DNA of 52,117 nt, from the NCBI GenBank assembly GCA_037834085.1, contig JBBMKC010000007.1, forward strand, positions 1 through 52,117, in the 5' to 3' direction. This document shows, one piece after another, positions 4,469-34,000 of the stretch. The notes under the pieces were generated by a model. It made no database searches. It was not told the DNA's origin and saw only the letters and a list, made by a program, of their open reading frames with translations. Both the position numbers and the translations under genes were made by a program. Source of the DNA: Bipalium vagum. Lineage: Eukaryota. The first letter of the stretch is position 1, and each line of letters begins with the position of its first letter.

Positions 4469-4567
4469 CAATGATAATATCTAAATCTCGGTCTCCAACT
4501 AGGTTCCTGAAGAAAACTGTTTAGTGCAGTAGCCAGATTAACAAATCCATAACACATAAGAAAGAAC
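4469..4567 (-). CDS. kcc: KCC exon 13 (not in the ORF track)
   Basis: [32 protein letters not shown](W), with TAG and GTACGG boundaries. Confidence 0.97.
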
Positions 4568-7016
4568 CTAAACAGTTAAAAGTTAAAATAGATAATGTTC
4601 AGATAAATATTCTATTTTATTTGATGTCTCATAAATATCAGCGAAATAATATATATTTAAAATATACAATGATAAAATGAGAATAAGAAGCTTAAATTTC
4701 AAAATTATTACTAGAAAACCGAATTTTTATAATTTAGTAATTAATTTCAGTCTCGAAATTCATTTTTACAAATCTAATACTACTTTTGATAAATTAGTGA
4801 TTAATATAATAGTAATAATAATAATAATAATAATATACAAAATATTTATCAATAATTTTCTTTCAACATTTTTGCATTTACATAAATGGTTTCTATTTTC
4901 CTAAATCCCTTTGAAGTATTTGGATACAAAATGTCTAGTTAAATGAACCAGCTAATAATTCGCAGTATTTTGATACATAATTTTTGAGAATATATTTCTT
5001 TTTTTTGAAAATAAGAACTGATTCTTTGCATAGAGCATTGAATATGTATTATAAAATAGTTCTATTTACATCATGATGCATTATCAATTTGAAAAATTAA
5101 AACTCTGATAATGGATGAATTTAAACAAAGATTATTCAGTTAATTTTGGTGAAGAAATATAATGAAATATTTTAAATAAAATGAAAATAAATACTAAATT
5201 ATTAATTTTTGTCGTGGTATATAAAGTAAAGAAGGAAACAAGAAAAAAATCAGTCAATAACAAAAACTAGTTCGAAGCAGAATATGTAAAGTTGGTAATG
5301 GTTACTTATTACGACCTATATTTAACAAATAATGTGTAATTGAATGGAAGATAATGTGAAGATGTCTTGAGATTCTTAATCAACTTCCAAAATGATAATC
5401 CATGATTTTTGTATCTAAAAATATGACAAAACATTCTATATTTTGAAAATGTTGATGAGCCGGGGATTGGAAAATATTGAAACATTAATATCTATATTCA
5501 AAAAAATTTTGTGATTAACTATTGTGACAATATTTTCTAGGTCACTGACACACTATTCTGTATATACTGTTGGAATTTTAAGATAATTAATATAGTCTGG
5601 TCGTTATTTTATTATTTAATGAACTTCAGAAGTTATCTGCATCACAAAATTCAACTTGTAGCTTTAATAATATTAGTCAACTATTAGTATAAGTAATAGA
5701 TACCCAATTTAATATCTTCGTAGTAAAGAAAATGCTTAAAATTCTTAAGATAGGTAAATTTGACATTATTTTGACAACTTTTCAAAAGTTTCTATGCCAA
5801 ATATAAATACTTTCTATAAATAACAAAAAAACAATAAATAATAATAATATATTAATAATAATAATAATTTTCTGAAAATATAAATATTTTAAGTAAAATC
5901 AATAAAACCAAAGGAATTAAAATATAATCCATTTAAATATCATATATATTTTTCTTTTGGTAATATTCCTATTTGATAAAATAAAAATCTTCATAATGTA
6001 CACAACATATTATGAAAACTAACATAGTTATCAATGGAGCAATGGAGTCAATACTAGCAATGAGAACTCCAAAGAAGGCAATTAAAAATGTTAATGCCTG
6101 TGCTCTTAAAGGCTCTCCTCGACTTGTTGTTACTTTAAAAACTTCCAAAAATGGTATAACATTATCTTGGGCTATTGCTTGTAATAACCGAGGAGCTCCT
6201 GAAAAAATAAAAAAAACAATCGAAATATGAATAAAATATTTAATAATAAAAGATAAAGTACGCAACAGCAACCTGTTAATGATTGCAGTCCGGCTCCAAC
6301 AGTACTCAAAAAAGAACCGATTAGAATGACCCATTCGTTTGGCCAGGCTAGCTTTGCAACTACTAATTCTCCACCAAGACTTATTCCATATCTGAAAAAC
6401 ATTTTGAAATCAATTTTAAAAATAACTGTCTTCAGATAATTAAATGAAATATTTCCTTTAAAAACATTTTTATATTTAAATCTGATAACTTTCTAAAAAA
6501 TCAGTGTATCAATCATGTTTTAATTCAATTAATAATGAAATAGAATTCATATGTGTTCCAGTTCTTCTAAGTAACTTCCTTTCTCCAATGTATATAATTG
6601 CATAATTATATATAATTACATAAATATTAATTGAGATTTAACGGATAGAAAGATTAAAATGTCTCAATTTTCAATGCCATATAAATATTGTATAACTATC
6701 AGTAATAAGTGTATAAAGGCCAAATCTCGTTTAGAACCATCAATTATCAAGTTCAATTTTAATATGATAGTTTGTAGAGAAGACCTCGTTATTGGAACTC
6801 ATGATATATTAGAGCTAAAATTATTGAATTGATTTAAAGTTTTTAAATATTTTCTAAGAGACAGGTGTTACTATTAAATTACCTCTTTAATAAAAGATTT
6901 TAATATTTGGTCAAAAATTGGAAATAATAATATAAAATCTTTTTATAGTTTAATTATAATTAAGAACTAATTATCAAAATTAACAACAAATTTTTAAAAT
7001 CTAAAATGATTATTAA

Positions 7017-7052
<36 letters not shown>

Positions 7053-10000: not shown

Positions 10001-13000
10001 GCAACCAGTATAAATTAATAATGTAAAATATTACTCTGATTGAACTCTTTCAAAAATTTTCTAATAGTTCCATATAAATAGAAAGTTGAAATATGAAGGC
10101 AGAGAATTCAGATGGATTATAAAATCTTGTTATGCATTCATCAACCCTCCCATAAGTAAAATTAATATTTCAAGCAAAAAATTATCAGAAAAAATTCATA
10201 TATTGAAAGAAAATCAATGAATTGAAAGTTTACACAAGAAAAAATGTTGAAAATATTCGTTTTGACTAAATTTTCAGTTGAGATCATATGAAAATTGTCA
10301 AAGATTCTGCACCCGTCAGTCTACAATGTGCATTATCCGGATTAGTTTACATTCATTTAATATTATCAGCGAATCCAGTGCAGATTAATAATGATTGAAA
10401 ATTGAAATTAATAAAAAAATACCTTTTAAATTAATAATGTTGGAGTGAATAAGGAAATAAGTAATTAAAAAATTCTATTTCTGTTTTTTCAGAGTTTCTG
10501 TGTGAAAGCAAAAGTTTTTGAGAGGAAGGCCTTTAAATAATAAAATAATCAATCCTTCTTTTTCTGTTAATTAAACTTCACTGATTTTTAAATCAGAGAA
10601 TTGCAAAGAATATTTTTCAATGTTTTTTCTATTAATTTATTCTCAAAAACCTCGGTACAACAGCTGCAGAAAATGACATTACACGTGAATGATTGAGCCT
10701 GCAAACATTTCATCACGTTTACCTGATAGTTGAAATGTAGAGTTTGATTTTCTCCAATCAGTTTTGTTAATATTCAATTAGTGTCCTCCGTTTTCCATTC
10801 AATCTTGAATATAGATAAATAACCTTGATGTCACGAACCTTACTTTGATTAAGCTATTATTTCCCTTAGTTCAATGTCAATGTAATTTTGATCGTATCTG
10901 TATATAATTTTTTAATTTTAATTATTTTTTAAAAAAAACAGTGTTAAATGCAAAAGTCCTATCATATTTCATGTTTCTAGTACTTTTCAGGTTAGATGTT
11001 GACATCTTATTATTTTAAGAAAAGATCTTTGCTTCTCAATTTATTAAATATTTATTACTTCCATAGTCAAACATAGTAAAATCGTGAAGAAAATATAAAG
11101 TTGCTTATATACTACTTATATATAGAAATTAACTTTAATTAACTAATTANNNNNNNNNNNNNNNNNNNNNNNNNNNNNNNNNNNNNNNNNNNNNNNNNNN
11201 NNNNNNNNNNNNNNNNNNNNNNNNNNNNNNNNNNNNNNNNNNNNNNNNNNNNNNNNNNNNNNNNNNNNNNNNNNNNNNNNNNNNNNNNNNNNNNNNNNNN
11301 NNNNNNNNNNATATAATTTTTGTTATAAACAATACAATATCGATTTTTACATAAAAATGAAATTTACGAAAATTAAAAAATTTCGATATTATTAATACAT
11401 TTATTATATTTATATTATTAATAAAAATAATATTTATTAAATATATTTCATACTTCAACGAATTTAACAATCATTATTTAATTTATTAATTATTAAAGAA
11501 ATTTAATTAAATTTTTTTATTCGACAATTTCAATTATTAATATATTAAAATTGATTAAATACAATTGTTAATAGAAAAATATTTATTATTTAATCAACAA
11601 GCGGAAATATAAATAAAAAAGAGTCAGGCAATAACAAAAATATATTTGAATTTCTTGTTATATTTATATTATGAATTTTGTAAACATAATGAAACATTGT
11701 TTAATTTTTGTCTATCAAAATATTCGTGCTTTGTCAAAAATCGAAGGACTTGAAAATCATAGAAAAATAAATTACTTTTGTGAATACAAACAAATGTTCA
11801 ATATTTTTCAATGATCAGTAATTTGTAAAAATTGTTTTCATTCCTTAGAATAACAAATGTATTCTCATTGAGTTAAGTTTCGATTAATTGTTTTAATTAT
11901 TTACCAATATCGACTGATTTGTTTTTCTCAAATAATAATTGAACAGTTTAAACTCTAAAGCATCAAAAATTCTATCGTTTTTCACTTGCATTTATCTAAA
12001 AAAAACTTCGGATATTATTATTATGGTGTCCCATAAAAAATGACCGTTTCTGATATATCAACATTAAAGCTAAATAACGTTTTTTATAAAGAATTAATTA
12101 ACTATTGATTTTTTGTATAAAATGTTAAGTAGATCACTTAATAAAATAGTAAGATTAAATTTATATATATTTGTTTTATTTTTCATTTTAGCGCTCAATT
12201 AAAATGTCTATAAGATATGAAATTCTTGTAATTACAAAATCTACTCTTAACGATTTTCTTATTTTCAGTATGGATCTATTGAAACCAGACGTTATTTGTA
12301 TCTTAGATGATCTATGATAACAATTTAAAAAGAAAAAAAATAACTCAAATTTATTTGAAAGTCTTCATTTTAAATAAAACGTAATAAATTCGTACGTTGA
12401 CTAATAATGTGAACAAAATATTATGAAGATAAAAACATGTATAAGGACAGACGAGCTACTTATTTTTATTATAGATATACAATTACAAAATAATAAACAT
12501 GAACAATTACTATTTTAAACTGTAATTATAATTAATGGAACTAATTAATTGGTAACTTTCAGAAGTATTTCTGGCATAGAACGGAGTAGATTAGATAACC
12601 ATTGTTTTTGGATCTGATCGTGAAAGAGAAAAAAATGAACACTGCTGCTGTAACGATGACACTTGGACATTTAATACTAGTCAGTGTTTTACTTAGTTAG
12701 ATGTCATAAATCGTAATATGGTGTAGCCATTTGAAGCAAGGCCTCCCAAAAAGTAAAACTAGCAGAATGCTTAACTGTAGAGGAAAAAAATATTATTGTG
12801 AAATGTCCTTCACGAAGGTGCTTCCTGCCACAGAAGCTAGAGGGGGATGGATTAAATTGATTGCGATATGAAATATGCCAGACTTTCGTCCACAAAGCCC
12901 GGATTTAAATCCAATAGAAAATCTATGGTTTCAATTGAAAAGACTGCTGAAGAAGTCCTTCATGCATAATGTAGACCGATTGAAGCTACATATCTTGAAA

Positions 13001-16000
13001 ACTTTATGAAATCAGATTCCAAAACAATAATTATCTAATCTGACCCGTTCCATGCCAGCAAGACTTGTGGAAGTTATCAAGGCTAACGGAGGTTCGATCA
13101 ATTAATATAGACTAAATAGTATTTGTTCATGTTTATTCTATTATAATTGGATCTCTATGTTAAAAATAAGGAATACATTTTTATCTTCATAATTTTTATT
13201 CACGGTATTAGTTAAAGAACTGTGTCTTTCATTTTTGTAATTTTTTTCTTAATTTTTTCCCCAATATTTGATTATATTTTCATTTGTACTAAATAAAAAT
13301 TGCTTAACAAATCTACAAAATTTTGTTAAATTTCTTTCTTTCTATGATGTTTTTTAAGAATGAAAAAATAATTTTATAAATTATTATTTTTGATATTTTT
13401 ACTATTAATTTTGAAATAATTACTATTTAATTATGTATCTGTGTTTAGTGAGTCTTAGCAGAAAATAAAATTTCATCGAATTTACCCTTTGAAATTACAA
13501 TGAAAATGAAAATTTTATTAAAAAAATTATTAATACATAACAATAATGAAAAATGAAAAATTTTATTTCTATGTATTTATTTTAATGAAAATGAAATTCT
13601 TTAAAATTATTCTATTTTTTAAAATCAGAAAATATTTTAATAGTAGGTTCTATGTTTTTTATTACCGATTTTATAATTAAAATGCTTTTAAATATCAATA
13701 AAAGCTTTTATCAATCTTAATGGATTATAATGAAACCAACGAATATTCTCAAATGGATATTTTTGAAAGTATTTCATAGTTATTTTTTTTAAATGAAAAC
13801 TAAAATTCCAGACTGAGTTACTTCAAAATATATAACTAGTACATAGGGTAATATCAATATTTCATCATTGTTCTTTGCAAATAAATATGATGAAAGGATT
13901 TGGAATTTTTCCATATTTTCCGATTAAAATTAATAAGAAGTGACCCATAAAATCAACCATTAAATGTTACCTAATATTCGTTTTAGTTTAGGACCAATCT
14001 CGAAAGCAAAAAACATTATTATTTTTCGCAATAAATCTTTTTACAAAAGAAATTTTCTTAAAACTAAAACAATTAAACATTCAGCGGAAGCAAAATGACT
14101 TTAAAGAATTGAAATTTAATTAACAAAACCCCAAAAAATCAAACTCAGAAAGAAATTTTTTAAATAAAATGGTTATATTGCCAAAAGGAAGAATTGTAAA
14201 GCCAAATGAAATGATTAAAAAACTGATCCATTCCGAAACCTGGGTCCATGATTCTATTATGTCTTAATTGATACAATGAAATTAACAGTTAGTATTCAGT
14301 TTGAATTGGGGAAATGAAAAGAAAACCAGCAATTTCACAACAGAATATCGGGATCAATTCGATTTTTCCTCCAGAATATTCTCTAATGAATATAAAAAGT
14401 TTCATGGCCGAAACTATCCATTAATTAATCTAAGACTATTCTATAACCAATCACAAATACTTCCCCCTGCATTCAGTTCGAAACTGAGAAGGAAGCAGAT
14501 AATTGTATTCTGTATAAGAAATAGAAATGTTATGATGTCGTAAGCAAAAGAAATATCTCCAAATATTTCTAATTCATTAAATTTTCTTTGAAAATATAAA
14601 ATTGTTATCTATGCTAATTTATTAGAAAATTTCAGACATTCCCTACCAAAATATATTTTAATGATAAGGAAAAATAGCAGAAATTAGAAATTTACAGACT
14701 GATTTAGGTTATTAAATGTTTTAATTGTAAATAAAAAAATGTTTCCCCAAGTTTTGACACATTGCAGAGAATGGGTTAATTTAACTTCTTAGAATATTTT
14801 TAATTTTTTTTCAAAAAAAAAAATTAGATAAAATTTTTTCATTTTTATCCTTGGTTATTAATTATTATTAAAATTATATTTTATTGTTTAAATATTTGAG
14901 AATGAAGTCGATTTTTTATACATTGTTTTACTGATATTAACTGTTTAGTAATAAATAGTTGTATAATTTGTTTCCTTTGAGATTAAAATAGCACTTTTTG
15001 GTATTTTTTATAATGAAATATAAACTTTTAATGATGTATCGAAAAAGTTTCCAACAATATGAACTCCTATAACTTTTTGATAAATTATGTTCACGAGTTT
15101 TAAATTGACAAAAAATATTATGATAATATAATAAAGGAGTTATTTCCGTTGATTTATTAACTAATAGTATTGAGAATTCAAATACTTCTATATTATTTTT
15201 GTTAATTAATTTTTGAGTCTGCTTTTGACCAGAAATTACTTAAATAACCTAAAAAGATAACCTTAGAAACATATCATTTTTAAGTTATTAATATTAATAA
15301 ATAAAATTTTATTATTTTGAAAAATTATAATCAAATAAACCAATGAAATGATAACCAAGCTGTCAAGAAAGAAAAACAGAATATGAAGATATGTAAAATT
15401 ACAAAAATTTTCATTTAAATTAATACTTCGCTTAATTACTAATCCATAGGATTAACATTTTCGGTATTTATTTTTGAAATAATGTGCTGAAAAATCTAAT
15501 AAATAATCAAATTTCCCATTAATATTAAATATATTTAATATAAATTATAATTATTTTTTAATTCAATGATTATTTCTAAAAATATATATTAACGTATAAA
15601 ATTGGAATTTTTATTCACTGTTTTTTAGTTTGTTTAACATATTAAAATATTGAATATAAGTAAAAAAGCGTTAAATTAAAATTGTATATGAAAATAATGC
15701 TATATTTATTTTTTCGTCTAGATATATGTGGATTATTATTTTTTTATTGTAAAGATTGTTTAGTAACGTTTTCCGGTTTATTTATTACAGTTGTGATACG
15801 ATTAAGCCTGTCTTTCATTTTATGAAATTATTTTATTTCTCCGCATCCTATCAGTTACGTTAACTGTCAAAATATTTCAGAATAAAATATATAAACAAAT
15901 AAATTCAAATCCCTAATCAAAAATGACTCAAATCTAAAATCCAATAAATACATAAAATTATTATTATATTTTGAAAAATATTTTCCCATGTTCATGAAAA

Positions 16001-19000
16001 GTAGAAAAAAAAAACAATTCCCTAGATACTCCGAACGAAATACCTAAAGAAATTTTTAGTCACAAGGGAAAATTCATCAGCAAATTAAATCTAGGAGACT
16101 AAATGAAAAGACCAGAATTAGCAGCGAGATTCAAACAATCAGAGATTTAAAATCGGACAAAACAATTCTAGAGAATTGCAGATTAGTAATACAAACGGTT
16201 GACCTTCTGTCCACTGATGTATTATAGTCGATGTTTATAGATTCTATTACAATTGTTATTATTATTGTTTTTGTATATAAAGAATCATTTTTCTTAGAGG
16301 TTTAGGTCTCTACAGAATTATATATGCAGAAATAAAGTATTTCATAATTATTTTCATAATTGTATAGTTTTAATAAGTGCCTTCTTTTTATCGTTTATTT
16401 AAACAAATTAATTATCTAAAACTTTTACTAAAATTAATTTAATTTTTTAAAAACGATTTAAATTTATTAAAAACTTATTTTACATTAAGGATTAAATTTT
16501 AATATATTACTTAAAAAAATATTTATGATTTATTATTTAATATTAATTAAAATTTAATCCTTACAATTTTTTTATTATTGAAAAGTTTATAATTAAATAT
16601 TTAATAAAATTTTCAAATAAATATTTTTAATTTCTACAAGAAATATAAATAAACATATTTTTCGGTCTTTGTCTTCTTAAGAAAAATTAGTCTTATATAG
16701 GTTAATATATATACTGGAATATATATATGTTAGTGAATATATACTGGAATCCATAACTTAGTCATTATAAATAACATTGAATCATCTCATCTGTACAGAG
16801 TGGGGAAAATGATCTTTCAAATTTTTTAAGGACATGATTTTAAGGATTTTCATTAACTTTTCTTTGAAAACAAAATTTTTCATTGCATTTTTATTTATTT
16901 TTAATTTAAAATATTTTTAAAAAAAATTTAACTGAAAATCTTTAAAAATGAATCGAGATTTGGAATAGATGAGGAAAGCGTCAGAACTATTGTCAAAAAG
17001 AAATTAAGTCTATGTTCTTACAAGATTAATCAACATCACTTCTTCAGCGATGCAATGAAAGCAAACAAGTTTCTAAAATGTTGCATAATGTAATGCATGG
17101 CCGTCGAGTCTCTAACAAGTTTGTCTTTCTTTCAATTTGAATTTTACATTTTTCATAATTTCTCTAAATTTAAATTATTATTAGTATTAGACAAAAAACA
17201 GGGAAAGATGAGATCATTTAGGTCAATGTTCTTCAAAAAGGAGGTTACAAGAAATTTCAAAGTTATAGAAAACTATTCATAAGAAAATATTTTTATTTAA
17301 GAAAAGATATCGATCAAATTCTAAAGATCTGGAATTAGTACTGAGAGCATCCATCATGGAAATAGGGCACAGATTTGATGTTTTATGCCAGAATATACAA
17401 AATCTTTATTATTATTAAATAAATATATAAATACATATACAGCGAAACCTGTCAATGTTGGGCACCAAAAAGATCAAACATCTTGCCAAAAATATAGGTT
17501 CATGAAAAAAATCAATTTTTAATTTTTAACAAATTTAGAGGTGCCCAAATTAACAGGTTTTACTGTATTAAATACATTTTATATTTTAATTTTTGGAGAT
17601 AAAAAAATTTAGTTTATTATAGGAATCGCGAAAAGAATTGGACCCGTAAAGTGGGTTTGAACACAAAAAGGTTAATGGATTGCAAAGATTATTTAAGAAG
17701 AAAGTACTACTTCTATGACCTGCAGATAAAAAATTAGCGTTTTAAATTTTTTTTATTATTCTTCAATTTTTTTAACATTGATCAGAAAAATAAGAAATTT
17801 CATTAATATAATTTTGAGCTACAAAACCTAATCACGAATAAATGAATTACACGTACAATGCTCATACTATAAATTCTGTCACCAATTTCAAAGTATACAA
17901 CGTTGTTGATGTAACATTAATGAAATTCATGAAGGTTTGAGAGAGTTTCAAGAACGGCTGTAAATCAAAACTACGTGGTGCTGTAGTTGGAGCACATGTC
18001 ATCTCATGTCAAAAGCAATTTTTTTTATCATTCCAGTATACTAACCACGTACAAACCTATTGAGATATTTGCATCGATTCCGGTCTCTGGATTAATTTGA
18101 TATTATTTTTAACATGAAAATATTTGTAAAACTGAGAATTTATTGTGATGCTGAACAAAGTGCTTGAAAAAATCAATGGTTATTTTACGTATGAAGTTTT
18201 TAATAATTAAAGATAACAACCTGGATTATCTTTGAGTTTTATCAACCGCCTTATAGTGAGAGAAGTTCTTATGACGGAAACAAAAATAAATAAATTTAAT
18301 TTATTAAATAAAAACTGAGCAACATCAAATAAATGATAGATTTTTCTAATACACATAAATTAAAGATCAGTTACTAAAATATAGTATTATTATAACGTAT
18401 TTAATAAAAAAATAAGATTTAAGACAATATATTTAAATAAAACATTGTAGATGAATATAAAAACCAATACGGTAACGTTTATCAATAGCGATCTATATTC
18501 AAATAGGAAATATAGATTACTGTATTATATGACTATGAAATTAAAAATGCACAATATATAATCAATAGATATTAAAAATAATATTTTGGCTCACCTCTCT
18601 AAAAGTGTTTCTCATAGAAAGGAGATTCAAAAAAAATATATTTTAATAAAATATTACATTAGCTTTAAAGAGTTAAAATTATTTCCTAACTCAATTTGAG
18701 AAGTAAATTTTGTAATGTAAACTTACGTAATCGATAATATTTAGAAGCTTACGTGGTATAAATGAGAGATAATTTATCTTTTACAGGAATGGGATAAAGC
18801 TTTCCGGTTCCCTGTGTAGATAAGTATAATTTATTACTTACAATAAAATTGGTAACGATTCCATGTTATTGATGATTTTATTACGGATTTTTTTCATTAA
18901 ATCACCAAATTTTTAGATAAATAAATTTTTTTCATAAAAATTTTCTACCTAAATATTCAAGTTTTAAATTAGAGATATATAACTGAAACAATTCAATTTT

Positions 19001-22000
19001 ATTTCATGGAAAAAACAGTTGACAATACTTAAGAACTTTTAAAATATAATTTAAAATATTTTTTGATAATTTTGTCGATGATTTTTAAAATAAAAATTTT
19101 AAAAAAATTAAAATTGATAGAAAGATATTAACAGAAAAAATTAAACGGTAATAACAAAAAATAGATAGTAACAAAATAATCTAAAACATGTTCATGAAAA
19201 TTTCATTTAATAAAAAATTAATTAAGTAATAAATATTATTAGAAGCTTAATAAAATTTAAATTAAAAAGTTCTTAATTTTTCATTCATTTTAACAAGGAT
19301 TTCTTAATAATGAAGATTAAATACTTTCGGATTCATGTAATTTTCCCAAGGAATGTAACATTTCTATTTAACATTGTAATGTGACAGAGTTTTTGATAAA
19401 GTGTACATAACTCAAGTACAGACAGTTAAAGGTGAAAAGTGGTTGAAAGTCATTCAAATTAGGCTCAAATTAGCAAGCAGCTGAAACTTATGTCTTTCTA
19501 ATTTTCGATTACCCATGTCAAATATAAAAAAACTCTATATAGATTCATGGTAAGTTAGGCAGAAACAACTAAAAAGATATCCTATGGTTTCACGAATCAA
19601 CAACCAATAATCATTTTTATATTATTTTCTTGTCTGTGATGAAAACTGAACCCTAGAAGAAGATTCTAAGTAATATGAACCATGAATTGAGATAACACCT
19701 TTTATAAATCATAAAATTTTATACTTATTTCTTAGTTCACAAGCAGTTCGTTATCTACCAGAACCACATTAATTAAAATAAATAAATCACAATAAATCTA
19801 TTGTACTCAAATATAGATGAAATAATGAATAAACCTGCAGAAAAACAGGCATTATAGACATATTCTATTTCATGATAACGACTGTTCTCCTACTGCACAT
19901 CCACCCAACTCATTAAAAAATATGAATTTGGAAACTGCTTAGTACATAAAACAATGATATAATAAAACTACTGCTGTTAAATTTCAGACTGTTGATATAA
20001 ATGAAAGTGAAAACAAAACTGATACGGTACAACTCAGATATTCATTAAGGAAATTAATGAAAAGTAAAAGACGTCAGTGAAAAATTGATTGAATTTATTA
20101 AGAAAAGAATACAAAATCACAGATGTCCGTGAATCAGTTCATAAATATTAATGAGACGTTTCTTAACAGCTGAGAATATATCTGGGACAATTAATGTTAG
20201 TAATAATACAATTACAGTAATAAAAGAGAGAACTGTAAAATTAAAAAGAATGGTATAATTGGGTCTTAAAATACCGTGAGATTAAATACTCGGACATCAA
20301 TCATAATGACTACGATTAGGTTAATGAGAATGTTTATGAGAATTTTTAATTTTAACATCATAATCAAATAAATTAAAATAATCATAATAAATATTTAAAA
20401 TCAATAAAAGTCAATATGAATTTCATTTTAAATATTAAATATAGATTATAGAAATTTAATGTAATCTATAATTAAACTGTTTGATTTTGAAATTAAATAC
20501 TATTTTTTAAAAAATAAATTAAAAATAAAGAGATGGAAATGAATTTTTCTTAAATATTCAGATATTTGTACCCTAAAAAAATTAATAAAAATATTATGAA
20601 ATGTAAACATATTGATGTTAATAATAATTAATTAAAATTTCTGAAATTTGTCATAGAATATTATGATTTTACATAGTTTGTGACATGCATTATACTTAGA
20701 CGTAAAAATGTGTACTCGTGTGCTCCTGATTCCTTACTTTTATAAATTGACTGTTCGTAACTCCTTTTAACCTTTTCGAATCAAAACACCCACCACAATA
20801 CCGTATCCGCACCCCCAAGAACTGAATCAAACTTCTACAATAAAACTTTATTTGAACAAAACACAATCACACTGGAAAAAAATGACCACAACGACAATCC
20901 ACTTCGTTAAATCACCCTATAATCAATGAGTCCAATGAATAACAATGACACCAAGAATAATGATAAATAAATGAAATAAAATAAAAATAAATACTGTTAC
21001 TATTATAATAAAAGAGAAGAAAAAGAGGATCACAGAAGAAATAGTCAAGAGTAAAAACAAAACGGTCTCACGAAAAGCGACAAGAGGTCCCTGGGTCACC
21101 CTCTTGGTCCTTCTCAGGTCACCTAGGAGTTCCCAAGCTCGCTGGGTCCCCTTGGTAAATCCTTCTGCGTCGCCATATCCACTAGGAGGAAAACCTGATA
21201 TAATTGCCTTTGTCTCGAAATTGATTCCTGAATTGATCCTTGAATTGATTCCTTCCTTTAATTTTTTGAGCCAATTGACGGGAATAGCCGTCTCTTTATA
21301 TGGGCGTAGAGATTGGTCTACGATCACCAATCCCTAAGCTTAGAGACAGCTATTTTCTCTAATAGCTATTCACTCTATCTCCACGCCGAGATAGACTCAT
21401 CAAGGCTAATGGAATCCTGCCTAAACTTGCGAAAAATCACCATGGCGGGATTTGCTCATAAAGAATNNNNNNNNNNNNNNNNNNNNNNNNNNNNNNNNNN
21501 NNNNNNNNNNNNNNNNNNNNNNNNNNNNNNNNNNNNNNNNNNNNNNNNNNNNNNNNNNNNNNNNNNNNNNNNNNNNNNNNNNNNNNNNNNNNNNNNNNNN
21601 NNNNNNNNNNNNNNNNNNNNNNNNNNNNNNNATGATGTTTTCATTTTCAAAACAAAATTAATTTTCTATTCACTTTTTCATATTTTTCCCATAATTTGTG
21701 AAGATTCCTCCAAATTAGCTAAGAACATACTAAAATTGCACGACCAAAAATAAATGGGACTCAAGCTAAGAAAACCAAAACAAATAAGAATCAAAACGAC
21801 GAAACAATTGGCTAAATTAATTAAAACAAAATAGTGATGTTGCATCTGTTACTTTGAGTTACATTTTGATTTTACTTTGATGTTTAGGTGGTATGTATAA
21901 TAATATATATTTTTATATACGTATATTCAGTGTGTTAAATAAGTCCTTTTGGATTTTATATAATGTAATATCAACAGAAATTTATTATATATATGTAACG

Positions 22001-25000
22001 AAATTCTGCATGTAAAGGTTTTAAAAACTGCTTTCAATTTTTTATGATACCATTAATAAAAAAAACAATTATAAATTCATAATAATAAATTAAAATAATA
22101 AATAATTAAGTTAATAAATATAATCTAAGAGAAGCTTAAAAAATTAGAAAATTAAAAACTATTAACAAATATTTAACATTTGCTACTAATTAATTTTAAT
22201 CCTAAATTCAAGCTCTATAGAAGTAGAGCAGTACACAATAAAATGAACAAATAAATAAACAAAGACTACTAGCAGCACATCACAAATGTACAGAATTTAA
22301 AATGAATTACAAGATAATTTCTACTTAATTTCGACGGATCATTTACATAATGTGGACCACTTCTTTGTTTAAATAGTTCAAGTTTATATTTGTTAACGAA
22401 AAAAATTAGCCACAAACTGCTTTTAACAAAATTTAACATTGATTTTGAATTTATACAATATTTAATGAATCCAATAATCATACAGAAAAGAAGCTAAATT
22501 GTAAAAATTGTTAATTATTATTTAATTTTAAATTGAATATCGATATAACCGATTATTTTAAACAAACCAAAATACGAGAAACATATAATACAACTGATTC
22601 ACCTCTACTTTAATATGAGGCAACATTTCATTTGAAAATAACTGGAATAATTGGAGAAGTCAAAACTATTAACTAAATAAAAGGACCAATTTTACTACTG
22701 GAAGTGTATTTGCTGTTGATTTAGATCTGATATGGTAAGTTATATTTTTCCTTAATCTATACATTATCCGCCATAAAACATTTATCAAACTGTATTTTTT
22801 ATTAACATCGAGTGAATAATAATATTTAAGAACTAACTACCAGGATTATTTACCAGGGTTTTTAATTAAACTACATAAATAATCAAAGACCTCTTTATTT
22901 ACATTATTCCTTAATTATAAGTTTTCTTTGAACCAACCTTGTAGGTCCAATTAGCTACTATCAACACTTTTAGTTTGAGAATAGTCTATTCTGAGCACTT
23001 CTCTAGATTTCCTCAAATCGAGAAGAATATAATAATACAAGATAAAAAAGTTTGGAAGCTTATAAAAATTGTACAAAATCGGTTTAAAAAAGTAGTTTAT
23101 ATAACCACAACTTTCCTATTTTTTTGAGTCATTTTTGTTGGGCAATTAGATCAACTGAAAAAAATATGAAATTAATTTAAATATCAGAACCAATATCAAA
23201 TTGTTTAACTAATCATTAATAATAATAACCCATATTATCGACTAAAAGACCAAAAGATACTTACTTGTCTCTAAGAACATTATGGTCAACGGTAGCAGAA
23301 AAAAGGACGACTGCAGATAAATCTATAAATGGATAATAATAAATAGAAGTTAAGAGAAAATAAGGATTCTATTTCATGTTGTTTTAGGATAGTTTTAAAA
23401 GGATACACACAAATGACGATGTCGCACAAGCAGCAATTGATCCGAGAGGAATTGAGAATTGTGGATTGGCTAAGTCCCCAGATCTATTAGACCCAGCCAT
23501 AATACCTTTACAAAATATTCTAGTGTTTTTTCTCTAACCAACCTTACCTGTAACTGAAGGAAAAAATATTCCAATTAAAATGGTGAAAGAGATATATATA
23601 TCAGAAACACTCGGAGACTGACCAAGACCAGTTGGAGGAAATTTACCAGGTCGACCGTAAAAGCTGCCCTTGGTAGTGTAATAATTTTGAAAAAATCCAT
23701 CTAAAAGTTTAAAATGAATAACATTTTTTTGAAAAGTATATATATTTTAATTATTAAATTCTTTAGATGTCTACCAAACAGAAAGAAGATAAATTAACTT
23801 CTGTTTGGAATTTTATTTTATTTCAAAATCAATTGAGGATCTATCTCATTAATGAACCAAGATGTATAGAAAGTTCAACAACTAAAAATTAGCTTGCCAG
23901 AGCAGTCAGTTGTAATAAATAAAAATGAATTTGTATTGTTCCATGATAAGAAAAAATCACATATTTTAAGTGACTCTAGAAGCAATGTATGATAATACTG
24001 AAAAATTCTGGCACATCAACAAATATTCTTCCTTATTTTCTTATCTCATTTTATGACCATATATTTTTGTTATCACGACTTCTTCGGTTATCGTAAAATC
24101 AAGAAAGTAACTTAATAAAGTAATGAATAAAGAAATGTAATTTATATTTCGGCATGATTAGGTACTTAGAAATAATGCAATAATATTCGTAAAACACATG
24201 GAGATTATGTTGTTTATCATCCAATAATTTAGATAAGACAAAATAAGTCTTAAAAACCACCAGGGAGGTAGACGTAAAATTTTTCTGGAAAACATGTTGG
24301 ATTGATATAAAACATTTTTAAACAAAGAGAAATTAGAAATTTTCACAATTCAGTTCGAAAAATGAATCTTTTACAACAATCGCAAAATATTCTACCAATA
24401 AGTTGACAAAAGCGAAGCCACAAAATGTCTTCCAAAGCCATCTTCTCATTCAAAGAAAGGACTGGTATCCGCTGGGTGAGGTCTTATTTAAAAATTATTC
24501 ATTTTTTTCAATTGTCAAATGGTGAAACCATCAATATGGATACATACAGCGATTAAATTGTCAAAATAACTGGAAACCTGAAGAGACAATGTGTTAAACT
24601 AAATCTATTAAGCGCAGAAAACTCCAGACCTTATGTGTCTGTACAAACTTCGAAATTCCTGGATTTGAATTAAGAACCTCTTCGTCATCTAACAGGTCAA
24701 CTAAATTTATATTCAATTTTTTATTCACATATTCAAGAAAAAAACAAGAAAATTTTATCGGACAATTCTTTGACTTCAAAATCAAAATTGTCTATAAATG
24801 TGGAAGTTCTGCAAAGTCAGAAGTTCTTAGAAGCTGACAGAGATTATTTTGATTAATAAAAGATTTTATAAAGTCTTGATCTCATTTAATTTTGAAGCAT
24901 AAAGATAGTATAAAAATAGACACTTAATAGGCACCATCTTAACTAATTTCATAGAAAAAAGAAAATTTTTATTGTCAGTTTTATAAAAGCAGTACCGATT

Positions 25001-28000
25001 ACCTTTTAACAATGGTCTGTAAAATCCAGGAATAGCCGGAACTTCTGAGACATTATTTTCTTGGAAAAATTTACAAGATTCGCTGTCTTCCTGAGTGGTT
25101 CCATTGCAATACACTTTATACAAAGGTCCATCACTTCTTTTATCACATCTGAAAGAACCATTGGCTTGTTTGTCAGTGACTATGTCCATTGTTAACAACC
25201 GGTCTCCCAATATACAGACTCTAATTTTGCCATATCAACAGTACATGATCGGAATCAATTTGAAATTACTTTGGAGATCTTCCGGGATTTGCTACAAATA
25301 TCCCAATATACACACACAATATTGAGCAGAGAACACAGGCCAAACTTAACGTGGAAAATTTACTGACAAACCTAATTCCTATAAACACGAAACTCATCAT
25401 AATACAGAGCAAAATAACTCCATAAATTCTCGTGTTATTGACCAAAATACTTTCATGTGCATCTATAGGGCCGAATAGACTGGCATTTGGGACGATATAT
25501 TTCTAAAATAAGCATTATCAACACGAATAATGAATGGAAATAATTGAATACAAGTAACACTTCTATTGCCCCGATAATGTACATAGCAGCCGCGACTGTG
25601 TTACCAAAATAAAACAGAATTCCCACAGTACCACCAAATTCTGGACCAAGCGATCTACTAATCATAAAATAGGAACCACCAGCTGGAACCTTTCCATTTG
25701 TAGCGATAGCTGACATGCTTAAAACTGTCAGCATAGTCTAAATACATTTATAAATAAAATAAGAAATGTGCTCAGGATGGTAAAGGTATTTTGATATTTA
25801 ATATTTTAATGTTGTGTATTAATTCTTATCAATTTCAAAATTAGTCGAAATAATGAGAAATATAAATAATTCGAAGCTTAGTATAATAATACATAGATGT
25901 GGTATTATATTATTAATATTATAATTGTATTAATATATTGTTAATAAACGCATAATAACAATGTTCGTGGTGTGGATTTAAAGTCGTTAGACGCGTACAA
26001 AAATATGAATGATAATATTAAGATGAAACTTTTTATTTACAAAAACTTAACTATACAGGTAAACATAGACTCATTTTTCTATATAACCACATTCTGGTTT
26101 CAAGCACTTCTTCAATCAGTTTAGTAATGAAAAAAGATCATTTTCATAAAGATCCATCCTTTTCATTGAAAGAATTTTGCAACAGTGTTATCAGATTGAT
26201 TTGATCTAAAAGATAAAGAACTTTCTTTTCTTCTAAAACTCTTTAATACAACCAATAGCCAATCTGTATGAAACTAAAACAAATTTATCATAAAATTAGA
26301 ATTTATTAAGAATACAACTTCTGATCATTGAAATTCAACGAGAAAGACTGAAAGAAAAAACATAAATGTTGCATCAACTGAATGAAATACAAATGAAACC
26401 GAAGTCACTAGAAAGTTAGTTCATATCTGTAACGGTGTATTCAGAAAGTATATTCCAAGCCGTAGAAATGAATTCATCAGATAGAACTGGAATATTATCA
26501 GATAAATTCAATATTACTCAAACATCAGATGCATTACACCTTCATCGGGAAGTGCCTACAATTCAAACAAATAAGGCTAAGTTTTGATCTTGGAAAAAAG
26601 TGAAATCGGTACAAAATAAAATACAAAATCAAATCTCTTTTGAAAGAAACAACGCGGTGTATTAGGAACTTTTAAACCCCAAGAAGCTGTTATTTTTGAA
26701 AATAAAGGAAGTTAAGCAATTAAGCTAGATCAATGTTTGATAGTTAAGCAATCAGAGTCCGCAAAAATGCATATGATGGTATTTTTTACATTAAAATATA
26801 AGAGTTAAAGCCTTTTTGAAGATCTGTCCTGAGAAGTATTCATTAACCAATAATATTCACCTGATCTAACACAGTGAGATTCCTACCTTTTCCCATTGAT
26901 GATAAGCACACTTGCTCAATAACTTTTCAAAACTTAAAAGGAAGTGGTAAATATATCTTTGAATGGGTTGAAATTTGTAGAAATTTGTAGCTAGACTGAC
27001 ATTTTTTGAATATTATTATAAATGTTACTCCTGAAATTATCGTGATTTTATTACAAAATTTGTATTGTTAAACGGTACATCTATTTTTATTGAAATGTAA
27101 CATTAATTATTCAGGAAATTTGTTTTGAAATAAGTTTTAATTTTTGTTTACTCGATCAGTACAATTTTTTTATAAACAATTTTCGAGGAAAAAATTCAGG
27201 GTTTAAAGAATAAAGAAATTAAGATTGTAATTTTTCTTGTCTCAACGTTGAAAATAATTAATTCAGACATTTTTATAATATACAACACATCAAAATATAT
27301 AAATTACGAGAAAAATAAAACATCATTATTAATTTAAATAATATTATATAAAAATGTCTGTAATGTTGCATAACTTAATCAAAATATTAATATTTGATAG
27401 TAAAAATTGGTCTATGTTTTTAGTTTCATATGCACTTCCATATCAGATTAATCAAATTTCTCAATAATCTGCCTGTGTGGAAATGGTGAGAAAATTAATA
27501 AATAATATCGTACCATCTTTTAACAACAGAAAATAAGAATTAATTATTTTCTCACAATTTTATTTATTAAAATTAAAAAATATATTCGCAAATTAACTTC
27601 TAACATGAAATTATAATGTCAAAGAAAATGTTGAAAATTGATTATTGAAAACGACGGAAGTCAAAAAAATATAAGTGGAAATTATTTTTTACATCAATGG
27701 ATTTAAATGTATGTATCGTTTGAATAAAGAAAACAACGATTAACGTCGGATAATGAAATAAAAGTTATCAGACCATACCCCCTCAACAACGACCATGGAT
27801 CTCTGAATGTCAACGTATAAAATCTGTGTCTCGAATAATTGCTATATTAAATTATCTCATTCGAAAATAACTATTTAAGCAATCAAACATTTTATGAAAC
27901 CCAACGAATTTTAATTTTTCTCAATTGAAGATAAAAATTGATTTCTCCTCTCTGAACGACAAAGAGTGAATTTTGATACTTTTAATGAAATTTTGTTCTA

Positions 28001-31000
28001 AAGAATTTAGTTACCCTCATATTCCCAATTGTAATTCTCAATTAATTAATATCAGATAAAGTCAACTTGGTTTTGCTCCAAGAAATTTTTAGATCTCTGA
28101 ATCGATCTAATCAAATATTTCAACCAAGGCTGGAACCGACTGATAATAAAATAAAAAAAAAATATATATATATATGAGTATTTGGTCTCATACAAAGCTT
28201 ACCATTGGTCGTTTGATGAGAACTGCTTTATAATTATATTTTTTTTTCTAACTTAAATATTTCTGTATCAGACAACACTCATATTTAGCTTACATTTAAA
28301 TTATAAATAAATAAATGAATAAGGGGTTTTAATTTAATTTCATCTAAGTTTTCAAAGTCTCAATATATATTTTTATGTTTTATGAATAATATTTTTAATT
28401 TTAGATTTTAAACTTTGAAAGAATAGATGAAACTACGTTTGTTCTTTATTATTAAGTAACAAATCAATGAACCTAAATTCCATCCGGCCTGTGGTTGGTA
28501 AGTCACAAAGCATTACGAGGGATTGTGAAATATCCTAACTAATCAATATAGTTTTTAAGGTAAATCCATAAACTTTTAAAAATTTCCAAGTCCCAAATTT
28601 ACCATCTTTCATTTTCTGTTTTGAAATCTTCAATCAAGTTTTTTCAGAGAAGCAGTTACATTATGTAAAATCCGAAAAGCACCTAACTTTCTCATTTTAA
28701 AAACCATCATTGATCATTCGTGTTACACATTGATTCTGAGATAAATTCCTCTTTAAAAGCAAGTACCAAACAGGAGTCATCTTTAAAAATGGGCCCAACA
28801 CTTTAATAATTGTTTAATTTGATTGGGAATCCAAACCGAAACAGATTTTTGGTCATTGTTTGTTTGAGCGACACATTAGTAAATTGTTTTCTTTCAAAAT
28901 ACAGAGTCCCCCAAGCATTTACAAATTTAGAATGGAAGATAAGTGATTCTATGCCAAACTATGTTCAATTTTAACATATCTCTAATTTGATTAATGCCTA
29001 TTTTATTTATTCTTCTTTGCGCAACTATAAAATATGTATTAAGAAAGAAAATATATAAAAGCAAAATAATTGAATATATTTTTAATATTTACATTATTTA
29101 ATTAAAAATTTTTAATCGAGAAGAATTAATGGTTTTGAAAAATCTTTGCTCCACCACATTAAAAAAAGACTTAACTTTTGGAATGTCAAACATTATTCTC
29201 AAGCGGTGCATCAGAAATTAAATGTTCAATATTAGAATAGATTTATCCAATAAAAGTTTTGTGTAAATTAAAACCAAAATTAAATTAGTTATTTAGTCAT
29301 TATTTAATAATAAATTTAATTTCCATGACAAAGTTAAAATTAAATAAAATGAGATTATTAAGATTTCACGAAAATCTGAACAAGCTATCATCTTTTGGAA
29401 AAGTTAATAAAAGGGAAACTGTAATTTTTGAGAATAAATGAATATTAATTTTTATTTTATTTATAGAATTAGAATTTTGGATGAAATACATAAAAAAGAA
29501 CTTATGAAATTACTTCCTACGGAAGACAATGAAATACGCTTGTACATAACAAGAAAAAATAATCGACTTTATTATAATGAAATCATGGTTGACATTTCCA
29601 CCCAGTTCTACATTAAACCACAAAATCTCTCTATCTCTTAATAAAAATTTGTATAGAGTGACACAAAATTAGATAAAGGAAGTGATAATATTAAGTAATA
29701 AAATAATTGCACTAAATAATAAATTTATAAGAATGGTGTAAATATTTTCTATTGGTCAAATCAAATAAGAGTAATATTATAGAATAGAATATAAAAGAGA
29801 TTTAACATAGACATTTATCTAGAATATTATGAAAAAATAAAGTATTTTATTGAACTAATTAAAAAACACAGGTGTTGCAATATAATTTGGAATTTTCTCA
29901 TTTTAATTTGAAATATTTGTATTATTATAGAAACTTTTATTTGAAAAAATTGAAATTAAAAATAATATATTATATTATATAAATAATATATATATATATT
30001 TTTCCAATTTCCAATTCTTTTCTTACAAGAATTACTGCTTTAGTTGTAAATCTAAAACCAAAGACTTGAGAATTTAACGAAAACTTTTATAATCGGTTTT
30101 TGAGATTGAGAAATAACGATAAAAACATACGATGCGCAAAATTATCCCCACTTTGAAAACGACTATAAAAGCATTCATTTGATAGTTATTATGAATTTTA
30201 TTACCCCAGACATCATAATTTATATATAGTAGTAGCATGGAGGTAGTAGCATGCCACACCGAATTGCGGAATCTGCAGAAAAAAATGATCATAAATCCAT
30301 ACTGATGGAAATTTTATTAATAAATTTTTTGTTGAAATCTGTCTGTTTGTTTTTAACATTGCTTAACTTAATGAAAATTTCAAATTTCAAATTAATTTTT
30401 AAAAGTGAAAGGATAATTTTGGCGCACAGTATATAATATCATTTGATATTTTTTAACGAAACTGGATTTTAACCGTTAAAATAAATTTATTCTTATTAGA
30501 ATATAAAAGTTAAATTCTATTACGTTTATTATTAACATAATATTTTCTTATTAATAATCATTTGAAAATATAGGATCTGTTTTGATATAACTTTCGCATT
30601 TTCTGACAATACTCTGAAGACAAGATGTTAACCAATACATATATCTCCCAATTAACACAGGAGTCGAGACAAATTTATCAATTGGCTAGCAACTCAGATC
30701 CGAAAATTGGTAACGAAGCTATTAAAGCAATTTTTTATATCAATACCATCAAGATTCTCTATTCCTTATACCTGAGACAACTCCGAACTCAATGATACGA
30801 TCTGGTTGCCCAAGGTACCGAATACCACAGAATCGCTCGAGCTATCATATGATATGCTAGCGGTCTTTACAAGTCGCAAAGTTTTTCCAGATTTTTAGAA
30901 TTAAATTAACGTAACAATCAAATCAAATTAAAACCAAAAGTACATTGAAGAGACCAAAAAATTCGGGTAAGAAAAATATTTTATTTAAAAAAATTCAGTA

Positions 31001-34000
31001 AATCACGAGTAAACAAATTAAAACATTTGGCAAAATTATCTTAAATAATTATTGTTCTTATTAGTAATTAACTTTTTTTGTCTTCAGAACTCACTGACCT
31101 AATTTTCCCTGAGTCATCTTATCTCACCACAACAACACGATCTCTTTAAATTCTTTATTTAACTGCTGTGTTTCTTAACCGTTATGCAATCATTTCTCCA
31201 TTTCACGGTTAGCAAGTCGAATATTTCAGACGCTATATGATCACGAAAATATTAATTATCTCAGTTTATTTCTTAAACAAAATACAGATTAAAATATTTA
31301 ACTTAAGCAATCAATTATTTTATTTCAATTTTGTAGTCATCATTTCATAATCTCAATTGTTAAGACTTTCTGTATAACATGCATATACAGAAACCAAGAG
31401 ATTTCGTAAAATTAAAAAGTAAATTATAATAATAAAACTTAATCAATTACCGAACAACAGCAAACAAACACAATTAAAAATCCTAGAGCTGTTCCGGAAA
31501 CACCAATAATCCAACCCAACCGTACGAAAAATAACACTCCAAAAATGTTTTGCAAACACGGAAAGTACACACCAAGTAAAATACCCAACTTGTTGGACTG
31601 AAAAACATTAATTGTGATTATAAATGATATTCAGAACAAAATATTCCGTACGGATTTTTCCTTTAATTTTTTTGTTTCACCCGAGGTGGGTTCGATACCA
31701 CCAGTGTATTGAGCCAATTTATTGAAGATGTTAGCCATGGGTGGTCGGGTATGAAATTCTTCCTGAAAATAAAATGTAGCAATATTAACTTAATCCATAG
31801 ATCAATAATAAACACTAAAAAATAATTATCTTATAAAAGAAATTTATGATCATGTTCGATTTTCTGACAAGACTCAAAAGAATTTAGAATAATGACATAC
31901 TAACAAATTCAATAATATTCTGAAAATTTACAATGGGTAAATCGAATAAGAATCAAATAATAATTGACGTTTTTACTCAAATTATATGTGAAACGAAATG
32001 TGAAAAAATAATAGTGCAACATTTTTCTTTTATTATAATTTTTGTAAAATTATCCTTTTAAAATGTCAGGAAAATATATTTTTACATCTCTTCGTTTTCT
32101 AATTTTAAATATTGATCAAATTTCTATTTAATTTTAAAAAAAACAGACTCGAAAAAATTTTAAAATACAGAAATCATAATCAATATTTGATCACCGTAAT
32201 TCTATTTTGTCAAGTGAGAGTTTACTTGTGTAAAAATTATTATTATTATTATTATTTGAAATATATATCTTTATCTTCGCCTATAATCATTAATACACTA
32301 TTTTAAAAATATTTTCATAATTACCTGCAATACTTAGTCCTTATATAATTATCTATAAAAGAATTATTAATTAGTTTTAGGTATCTCCAAAGTTTCTAAA
32401 ATTGAATTCATTTCCATTTTTTATTTTATGTTGCAAAAAACATTACTTAATATAGTACTCCCAAATACATGTATACATTCCATTTTAAAAAATAAAGATA
32501 AGAATAAATTTAAAAAGTTAACTTTCCTTTTACTTTTGCATTTCTTTTTGGACAACTTCAATATTTGAATGAAATTAGGAAACATTCAAAAAACATTTAT
32601 CTCAACAATTGATTTTAATAACATATGAAACGATTCTGTTAAAGTTCATTCCTCATTTCCAGTTGTTCATGTTATATAGAATCTAACAATACGATTAAAA
32701 TGCTACATTGAGCGAATCTGTTCCTGTCTTCTACAAACACTGAACAGAAAGTCACTAAATATATCCGCGATACTCGGTATATATATATGATAAATGGCTG
32801 TGACAGCAACAATTTCATCAGACCACATCACCATGTCTTGATATTTTTCTGATTTATCTACATGTGTCGACTTTTAACATGTATCTTTCCTGTTCTGTGC
32901 ACAAGAAAAGTTCTTGATTATTTCTAGGTAATAATGTACAAATGTTACTGCAACTCGAACGGTTAACAACTATTTATTGTACATTCAAGCAAACAGAATC
33001 AATGTCACAGGAATTGATATTCTTCATCATACAATTCTGTTTTTTCATTTTATAAATAATAAATAAATCGATTATATAAAAAATTATACAGATCTATGAA
33101 TTCATTTTTGACAGTGTAAATTTAAATTTTTCTATATCCAAGTAATAAAATTACGAGGAAGACATTTCATGAATTACATGCAATAAAAATAAAATCAAAA
33201 AAAGAATACTGGAAACCAATCAAAACGAAGAAAAAACTTATGATGTATAATAATTTGAAAAAATTAATAAATCGTTGTTAATTAAAATTAATTGGATAAG
33301 AGGCTTTAGGGTTCATAAAACATTTCTAGAAGAACATCTCTTTAATTTAAGTATTTACTAAGTTTGCAACAAAATATTTAAAATATGGTCGTCGATGAAT
33401 ACGAGTAAATAAATTAATGATAACAAAGATTGTATAATAGTTCAGAGTATTTTATTTATACAATATTTTATAATAAACATTATAAGGAGTGGTTCGAGCA
33501 ATTAGTTGGCTTGAATTGCTTTAAATAAAGACCTCACGCCTAAATTAACAATTATTAAATGTTTTTAATTTAAAGTTTTAAAAAATTATTAAGTTACAAT
33601 TTTCTAAATATTTAATAACATATTTTAACTAAATGTTAGGAATTTTTTATAAAGTAATTAATTTAGTTTTTAAAAAATAGGTGAGGTCCATGTTTGAAAA
33701 GTTTGTTTAAGTAATCAGATTTAGTAAAATAACTTATCATTCCCTTGATTTTATTAATATAATATATTATTTTTTAAAATAACTACACAAGATTATAACT
33801 TGGCGACATCAACACTGTCGGATTCGATCGCAGACAGAATACTCCTGATGTACCAAGAAAAGGATAAAAATGTAAGGTGTTTTATAAAAAGATGTCAAAG
33901 ATATTTTGACAATAAGTGACCCCAATAAAGAAGAGAGAAACACCGATTTATGCTCTGTTACATGAAGATCTATGGGAAGCCTACGAGGAAATATCTGGGA

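What the first reader, a model, noticed from the sequence alone, without database searches (positions are those of the whole stretch)
23323..23406. U12-type minor intron in the KCC gene
Seen: the frame-preserving donor of this 84-nt phase-1 intron is GTATCCTTTT, and TTTTCTCTTAAC lies upstream of the AG. Established: RTATCCTTT plus a TCCTTAAC-like branch point defines minor-spliceosome introns, which are rare and lost in several invertebrate and parasite lineages. From memory, vertebrate KCC genes also carry a minor intron, which needs verifying. Inference: this organism retains a minor spliceosome or lost it recently, and the intron is longer than most of the short class.
Basis: partly seen in the sequence, partly recalled or inferred. 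Interest (0 to 1): 0.7.

Follow-up and report, generated by a model that had tools for sequence, protein, structure and literature searches.

The report
Minor-spliceosome intron in planarian KCC gene
A land flatworm's potassium-chloride transporter gene has a short intron with the signals of the rare 'minor' class, likely an ancient intron also kept in vertebrates and likely removed by a minor spliceosome whose four RNAs are in the same assembly; this is ordinary, as planarians were already known to have that machinery.

Summary
On the minus strand, 23406-23323 is an 84-nt phase-1 GT-AG intron of a KCC (SLC12A4-7-like) gene. Its donor is GTATCCTTTT and it has a branch-like TTTTCTCTTAAC, with the adenosines at -29/-28. 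This donor/acceptor pair restores the conserved Tyr and is the best of 7 in-frame options. A second KCC copy in the assembly (84% amino-acid identity, near-saturated silent sites) has a 71-nt intron at the same position with the same donor and a textbook branch point.

The assembly holds U11, U12, U6atac, a U4atac that I found and that pairs with U6atac, and SNRNP25. 'Retains' is therefore supported and 'lost recently' is not. COX1 points to a land planarian. All minor snRNAs are already published for Schmidtea (U4atac as a below-threshold, RT-PCR-validated candidate) and schistosomes, and SLC12A4-7 are listed minor-intron genes.

No RNA run exists to confirm the junction. The one oddity is a weakened, distant branch point in this copy, which could be an intron drifting toward major-type splicing. 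Verdict: real, a new member of a known class, low interest.

The parts
23323..23406 (-). 84-nt phase-1 GT-AG U12-type intron, splitting the conserved Tyr codon after the TTSxV motif of KCC
   Evidence: best of 7 stop-free in-frame donor/acceptor pairs against 8 homologues (159.5 vs 139.2 for the next); read-through meets TAA at codon 8
23397..23406 (-). U12-type 5' splice site GTATCCTTTT; exon -1 base is T, not G
   Evidence: 8-bp predicted duplex with the assembly's U11 5' end and with the U6atac AAGGAGA region; +3..+9 identical at 6 of 7 positions in the second KCC copy, versus 1-4 of 7 for the 7 other shared donors
23349..23360 (-). Branch-point-like motif TTTTCTCTTAAC (consensus with one extra T); candidate branch A at 23351 or 23350 (-29/-28)
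   Evidence: 13-bp predicted pairing to U12 with one bulge; 23 of 1000 shuffles as good
23323..23324 (-). 3' splice site AG, the first AG downstream of the branch motif
23407..23505 (-). Upstream exon (99 nt), [11 protein letters not shown] motif region of KCC
   Evidence: best PDB matches KCC3, KCC4, KCC2, KCC1
23265..23322 (-). Downstream exon (58 nt), ending at the LRDK motif
4469..31762 (-). Host gene: K-Cl cotransporter (KCC, SLC12A4-7-like); 11 exons of the membrane domain modelled, N- and C-terminal exons not modelled
   Evidence: 532 codons, no stops; the five best-scoring homologues are trematode KCCs, then Macrostomum

Best explanation
This is an 84-nt GT-AG intron with minor-class (U12-type) signals in a flatworm KCC gene, likely ancestral and likely excised by the animal's own minor spliceosome. 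Shown: the intron's signals, its frame-restoring position, the same intron with a textbook branch point in a second KCC copy, and U11, U12, U4atac, U6atac and SNRNP25 genes in the assembly. Inferred mechanism, from established minor-spliceosome biology: the U11/U12 di-snRNP binds the donor and the branch motif together, with U12 tolerating a one-base bulge. U4atac/U6atac.U5 then joins, U6atac replaces U11 at the donor, branching occurs at A -29 or -28, and the first downstream AG is used. Retention would put a stop 8 codons into the intron, so failed splicing would yield no functional transporter.
For: Donor rarity and predicted pairing to this assembly's U11 and U6atac. The second copy G000:C258311 (346 of 413 aa identical; 65 of 157 four-fold sites identical) keeps the donor and has TTTTCCTTAAC with A at -18/-17, while the other donors diverged. 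U12 71.1 bits, U11 92.6, U6atac 39.6, all over the Rfam cut-off. U4atac at G000:C198672 is a U4-clan hit (E 1.1e-4, below cut-off) with an Sm site; it cofolds with U6atac as a three-way junction at -40.1 kcal/mol versus -25.1 +/- 3.1, with 0 of 500 shuffles as good. SNRNP25-type Ubiquitin_4 domain, E 2.7e-15. The snRNAs closely resemble the published Schmidtea ones by eye, and their loci are 23-28% GC like the window. Mouse Slc12a6 has the donor TGT|GTATCCTTT. A goby KCC1 model reads C-I-L at this exact column, the translation expected of an unspliced GTATCCT donor. The -1 base is not G, which the literature links to minor dependence (PMC11347168).
Against: No RNA run was available, so neither the junction nor the spliceosome used is observed. 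The branch motif lacks the CC dinucleotide that PMC11347168 links to use of the minor-type branch point. It lies about 27 nt from the AG, against a reported optimum of 11-13 nt (PMC3584512). Its pairing score is only modestly beyond chance (23 of 1000 shuffles). CTTAAC at -28 also fits a major-type branch point, and a major intron in the same gene uses GTATTC. A genome-wide exact pattern for short U12 introns gave 7 matches against 8 for the control, so there is no genome-wide enrichment. CCDC84/CENATAC was not found (an inconclusive search). The assembly holds two triclad COX1 types and two non-flatworm ones, so which animal owns the snRNAs is inferred. Identity of position with the vertebrate intron is indirect.
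Confidence: 0.8

Rival explanations
1. A minor-like or hybrid intron part-way through U12-to-U2 conversion. The donor is still minor-type, but the 3' end has drifted, so that U2 snRNP (alone or alongside U12) recognises the CTTAAC branch point at -28 and the T-rich tract.
For: The branch motif is degenerate and distant compared with the second copy. The 3' region is T-rich like the gene's major introns. Mouse minor introns with suboptimal branch points engage U2 (PMC8848931 abstract and passages), and minor-like introns are described as a conversion intermediate (PMC11347168).
Against: The donor is a perfect minor consensus through +10 with no G at -1. Predicted U12 pairing is still 13 bp. PMC1557818 notes that a branch point within 10-20 nt is not always needed. 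The intron bodies of the two copies are too diverged to show the order of events.
Confidence: 0.14
2. A converted relic: the window's animal has lost the minor spliceosome, and the snRNAs and SNRNP25 belong to a second triclad present in the sample.
For: Two triclad COX1 types, 79% identical at the DNA level, are in the assembly. The second KCC copy could come from that other animal.
Against: Each of U11, U12, U6atac and SNRNP25 gave one match (lower bounds). A piece of the U12 contig about 470 nt from the gene has word depth 24.7, against 24.5-27.1 for the window's pieces in run X1 (weak evidence, and the gene itself was not covered). An unused donor would not be expected to stay perfect while silent sites approach saturation. 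Schmidtea keeps the machinery.
Confidence: 0.03
3. The splice sites differ from the model: a GT at -2 or -4 of the GTGTGT run is the donor, or a non-canonical acceptor nearer the branch point is used.
For: Three overlapping GT dinucleotides exist at the donor, and the long branch-to-AG distance leaves room for proximal non-AG acceptors.
Against: All 6 alternative stop-free in-frame pairs add or delete residues in a helix where 54 of 58 homologues have Tyr with fixed spacing. The second copy lacks the GTGT run yet uses the same position. Non-AG/AC acceptors were not enumerated.
Confidence: 0.03

Closest known systems
GT-AG U12-type introns of vertebrate SLC12A4/5/6/7 (KCC1-4)
   Same: Same gene family and GTATCC donor. 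The listed donor contexts of mouse Slc12a5/6/7 and human SLC12A5 (TCT|, TGT|, TTT|) fit a Val codon plus the first base of Tyr, as here (inference). The mouse Slc12a4 minor intron is U12-dependent in vitro (PMC8848931; which of its two introns was used was not checked).
   Different: Shorter (84 nt versus 144-1064 nt for the 5'-ward vertebrate introns), with a weaker and more distant branch point. The second, 3'-ward vertebrate minor intron could not be examined because those exons are not in the window.
Minor spliceosome of Schmidtea mediterranea (Schmidt et al. 2018, PMC6312358) and of schistosomes (Copeland et al. 2009, PMC2770079)
   Same: All four minor snRNA types are present. U6atac, U11, U12 and U4atac are visibly similar to the Schmidtea sequences, and U4atac is likewise below the Rfam threshold.
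   Different: A different triclad family (a land planarian by COX1). In the passages I saw, those papers describe the snRNAs, not individual minor introns.
Minor-like / hybrid introns (Olthof et al. 2024, PMC11347168)
   Same: Degenerate branch point lacking the CC dinucleotide.
   Different: No AG or G at exon positions -2/-1, and the donor is a full minor consensus.

Membership tests
U12-type (minor) intron | 5' splice site RTATCCTTT | tested here: met
   GTATCCTTTT; GTATCCTT follows 1 of 4189 GT sites in the window
U12-type (minor) intron | Branch point TTCCTTAAC-like, able to pair with U12 | tested here: inconclusive
   CTC instead of CC; 13-bp bulged pairing, 23 of 1000 shuffles and 7 of 1500 background as good. 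Fully met in the second copy (2 of 1000; 0 of 1500).
U12-type (minor) intron | Short branch-to-3' splice site distance (optimum 11-13 nt; 10-20 nt in older schemes, not always required) | tested here: not met
   A at -29/-28; optimum from PMC3584512; not obligatory per PMC1557818. The second copy has -18/-17.
U12-type (minor) intron | Position conserved as a minor intron in homologues | tested here: met
   Direct for the second KCC copy; indirect for vertebrates
U12-type (minor) intron | Genome encodes U11, U12, U4atac and U6atac | tested here: met
   U4atac is below the Rfam cut-off and rests on its pairing with U6atac and its likeness to the Schmidtea candidate
U12-type (minor) intron | Minor-specific proteins present | tested here: inconclusive
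U12-type (minor) intron | intronIC or PWM classification as U12 | not testable with these tools
   intronIC and its matrices are not among the tools listed; pairing energies were used instead
U12-type (minor) intron | Splicing depends on the minor snRNPs, junction seen in RNA | not testable with these tools
   No RNA holder listed; needs experiment
KCC (SLC12A4-7) host gene | Best matches are K-Cl cotransporters rather than NKCC/NCC | tested here: met
   KCC1-4 at E 4e-6 to 2e-5, NKCC1 at 1e-3 or weaker

The most novel reading that the evidence does not exclude
The two KCC copies capture one ancient minor intron in two states: textbook in one copy, and in the window's copy a minor donor joined to a 3' end that has slid to major-type spacing and is read by U2. 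This would be a natural U12-to-U2 conversion intermediate in an RNAi-tractable animal that may keep very few minor introns.
Probability: 0.14. Interest if true: 0.45.

Novelty: new member of a known kind. Interest (0 to 1): 0.2.

Why it matters
Modestly. It adds a triclad data point to minor-intron surveys; no triclad appears in the flatworm species list of the pan-eukaryotic survey's supplementary figure. It likely dates the KCC minor intron to before the split of flatworms and vertebrates. It also gives a complete minor snRNA set for a land planarian, including the hard-to-find U4atac. For annotation, gene finders are likely to mis-splice KCC here, as some public models appear to (4 of 58 depart at this column). 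It would matter more only if the weak, distant branch point proved to be a conversion intermediate.

Tried and rejected
RNA evidence: no RNA holder was listed; this is no evidence either way.

U4atac: the Rfam genome search found nothing. Two patterns derived from U6atac complementarity matched at control level (87 vs 99; 150 vs 167). I fetched 20 candidate places picked by eye and none hit U4atac. The best duplex among the 70 fetched loci, G000:C194464, was dropped because it has no Rfam support and no K-turn motif. The real candidate came from a third pattern guided by the Schmidtea sequence (1 of 70 matches picked by eye).

Other searches: the genome-wide short-U12 pattern was not enriched (7 vs 8). 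CCDC84 was not found. Laying run X1 on the U12 contig left the gene itself uncovered, which proves nothing. Two literature searches for exon-boundary variants to fix the human intron position found nothing usable.

Papers: text searches of PMC2846911, PMC2396436, PMC11347168 and PMC8280824 for flatworm terms, of PMC3291851 for KCC terms, and of the PMC2831892 supplement for SLC12A gave no hits. One paper sought by PubMed id was not held. Files 13 and 14 of the PMC6312358 supplements were not searched, and bioRxiv supplements are closed; intron tables there could already list this intron's orthologue.

Earlier findings: two look-ups in the scan's earlier notes returned nothing.

Nested ORF: the frame at 20926-21333 had no Pfam or homologue hit, and the Atlas could not be queried.

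Full report
Observation. The feature is on the minus strand. Window 23406 to 23323 is 84 nt, begins GTATCCTTTT, carries TTTTCTCTTAAC at 23360-23349 and ends in AG. The upstream exon matches KCC1-4 structures better than NKCC or NCC. I mapped the gene with homologues and built an 11-exon model of 532 codons without stops from 31762 to 4469. The N- and C-terminal exons were not modelled. The intron is phase 1 and splits a Tyr codon. I enumerated GT/GC/AT donors and AG/AC acceptors near the ends; 7 pairs were in frame and stop-free, and the proposed one scored best against 8 homologues (159.5 versus 139.2 for the next). Read-through meets TAA at codon 8. Of 120 homologues, 58 held the motif and 54 of these have Tyr at that column.

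More than chance. GTATCCTT follows 1 of 4189 GT dinucleotides in the window, and GTATCC follows 7. A search of the own genome with the upstream exon gave 3 matches: the window, a close KCC copy on G000:C258311 and a distant SLC12 gene. The close copy is 346 of 413 residues identical, with 65 of 157 four-fold sites identical, which is near saturation for this base composition (the saturation level is my estimate). It has a 71-nt intron at the same position and phase, with donor GTATCCTTA and a textbook TTTTCCTTAAC whose adenosines are at -18/-17. Donor positions +3 to +9 agree at 6 of 7 between the copies for this intron and at 1-4 of 7 for the other 7 shared donors. This is the strongest evidence that the signal is under selection.

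Machinery. The assembly (441 Mb, 272,664 contigs) gave one match each over the Rfam cut-off for U12 (71.1 bits), U6atac (39.6) and U11 (92.6), and one SNRNP25-type Ubiquitin_4 domain. U4atac was missed by the Rfam search and by two patterns. A third pattern, guided by the published Schmidtea candidate, gave 70 matches against 20 for the control. One of them, G000:C198672 near 3343-3480, is a U4-clan hit (29.8 bits, E 1.1e-4, below cut-off) with an Sm site. It cofolds with the assembly's U6atac into stem II, a 5' stem-loop and stem I at -40.1 kcal/mol, and 0 of 500 shuffles were as good. The pattern fixed part of that complementarity, so the shuffle test overstates the significance; the likeness to the Schmidtea sequence is independent support. 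CCDC84 was not found. RNPC3, ZCRB1 and SNRNP48 were not searched. The window's donor is predicted to pair over 8 bp with U11 and with U6atac. The branch motif pairs with U12 over 13 bp with one bulged base (-11.4 kcal/mol; 23 of 1000 shuffles and 7 of 1500 background segments as good).

Organism and contamination. The KCC model scores best against trematode KCCs, then Macrostomum. Of 25 COX1 matches I examined the best 8 loci. One (L005) is 94% identical in protein to a Bipalium cluster, with other land planarians next, and four degraded or partial copies are 88-94% identical to it, as expected of nuclear copies. The animal is therefore most likely a land planarian (Geoplanidae); this links COX1 to the window by inference. 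The assembly also holds a second triclad-like COX1 (79% identical) and two non-flatworm ones, so the sample is mixed. The snRNA loci have the window's GC content and resemble Schmidtea's snRNAs by eye. A piece of the U12 contig has the same word depth as the window in run X1 (24.7 versus 24.5-27.1; weak evidence). Whether the second KCC copy is a paralogue or belongs to the second triclad is unresolved; either way it shows conservation of the intron.

Mechanism. Shown: the signals, the frame logic, conservation between the copies, and the snRNA and SNRNP25 genes. Inferred from established minor-spliceosome biology (review PMC3584512, passages): cooperative U11/U12 recognition of donor and branch point, U4atac/U6atac.U5 joining, U6atac taking over the donor, branching at -29 or -28, and ligation at the first AG. 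I put this at 0.8. Against it: there are no RNA data, the branch motif lacks the CC dinucleotide associated with minor-type branch use (PMC11347168, passages), and it lies about 27 nt from the AG against an optimum of 11-13 nt, although a close branch point is not always required (PMC1557818, passages). The main rival (0.14) is a minor-like or hybrid intron whose 3' end is read by U2, a behaviour shown for some mouse introns (PMC8848931, abstract and passages). An exact genome-wide pattern for short minor introns gave 7 matches against 8 for the control. This shows no enrichment and suggests that few short consensus minor introns exist here, though the pattern was narrow.

Comparison with what is known. 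Human and mouse SLC12A4, 5, 6 and 7 each have two listed minor introns (PMC6717393 supplement rows). The listed mouse Slc12a6 donor context, TGT|GTATCCTTT, equals the window's, and those of Slc12a5 and Slc12a7 also fit a Val codon plus the first base of Tyr. A goby KCC1 model departs from human KCC1 at exactly this column and reads C-I-L, the translation of an unspliced donor of this type. I could not align genomic boundaries, so shared position with vertebrates is inferred. Schmidtea mediterranea has all spliceosomal snRNA types: U11, U12 and U6atac with small-RNA read support, and a below-threshold U4atac validated by RT-PCR (PMC6312358, passages and supplement rows). Schistosomes have a complete set (PMC2770079, passages) and minor introns (PMC10639083, section 24). 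That survey's supplementary species list has no triclad among its flatworms. Searches listed no paper describing planarian minor introns or this KCC intron in flatworms; subscription papers and online intron databases were not searchable.

Verdict. A real U12-type intron, likely ancient, in an animal group already known to keep the minor spliceosome. It is a new member of a known kind, interest 0.2. The only feature worth an experiment is the contrast between the textbook branch point in one KCC copy and the weakened, distant one in the other.

Noticed in passing
G000:C198672, about 3343-3480, + strand (L129): U4atac snRNA gene missed by the Rfam genome search; it pairs with the assembly's U6atac and resembles the Schmidtea candidate.
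   Followed up: yes
G000:C258311:6317-6387, + strand (L013/L035): Second KCC copy with a 71-nt consensus U12-type intron at the same position. The 16.9-kb intron of the window's copy is 2.3 kb here.
   Followed up: yes
L001, L002 (U12, U6atac): U6atac has GGC where the Rfam consensus has AGC, pairing with U12 GCC, and its 3' stem-loop is much shortened (94 nt). The Schmidtea sequences show the same features.
   Followed up: partly
L004-L011 (COX1 loci of G000): Mixed sample: two triclad-like COX1 types (79% identical), several degraded copies of one of them (likely nuclear), and two non-flatworm COX1 fragments, possibly prey.
   Followed up: partly
window 20926-21333, minus strand (inside the 16.9-kb KCC intron 23264-6392): A 136-codon open frame with a hydrophobic end, next to a masked stretch; possibly an exon of a nested gene. 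No Pfam or homologue hit.
   Followed up: partly
window 48841-49212 (-); also about 1650-1990, 3080-3660, 12700-13000, 38500-39000: Degraded Tc1/mariner-like transposase remnants. HTH domains are shown for 48841-49212; the others are judged by eye from translations.
   Followed up: partly
window 25551-25503, minus strand: A 49-nt KCC intron with donor GTATTC, one base from the minor consensus; the second copy has GTAATT there, so it is taken as major-type.
   Followed up: partly
P0030, P0065, P0068, P0072: Public KCC models (a monogenean, a goby twice, a clam) depart from the family consensus at or next to this intron's column, suggesting mis-annotation at the same minor intron.
   Followed up: partly
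L042, L043, L046 (G000:C205966, C215311, C270805): Other exact donor-plus-branch pattern matches that may be short AT-AC or GT-AG minor introns; host genes not identified, and the count equals the control level.
   Followed up: no
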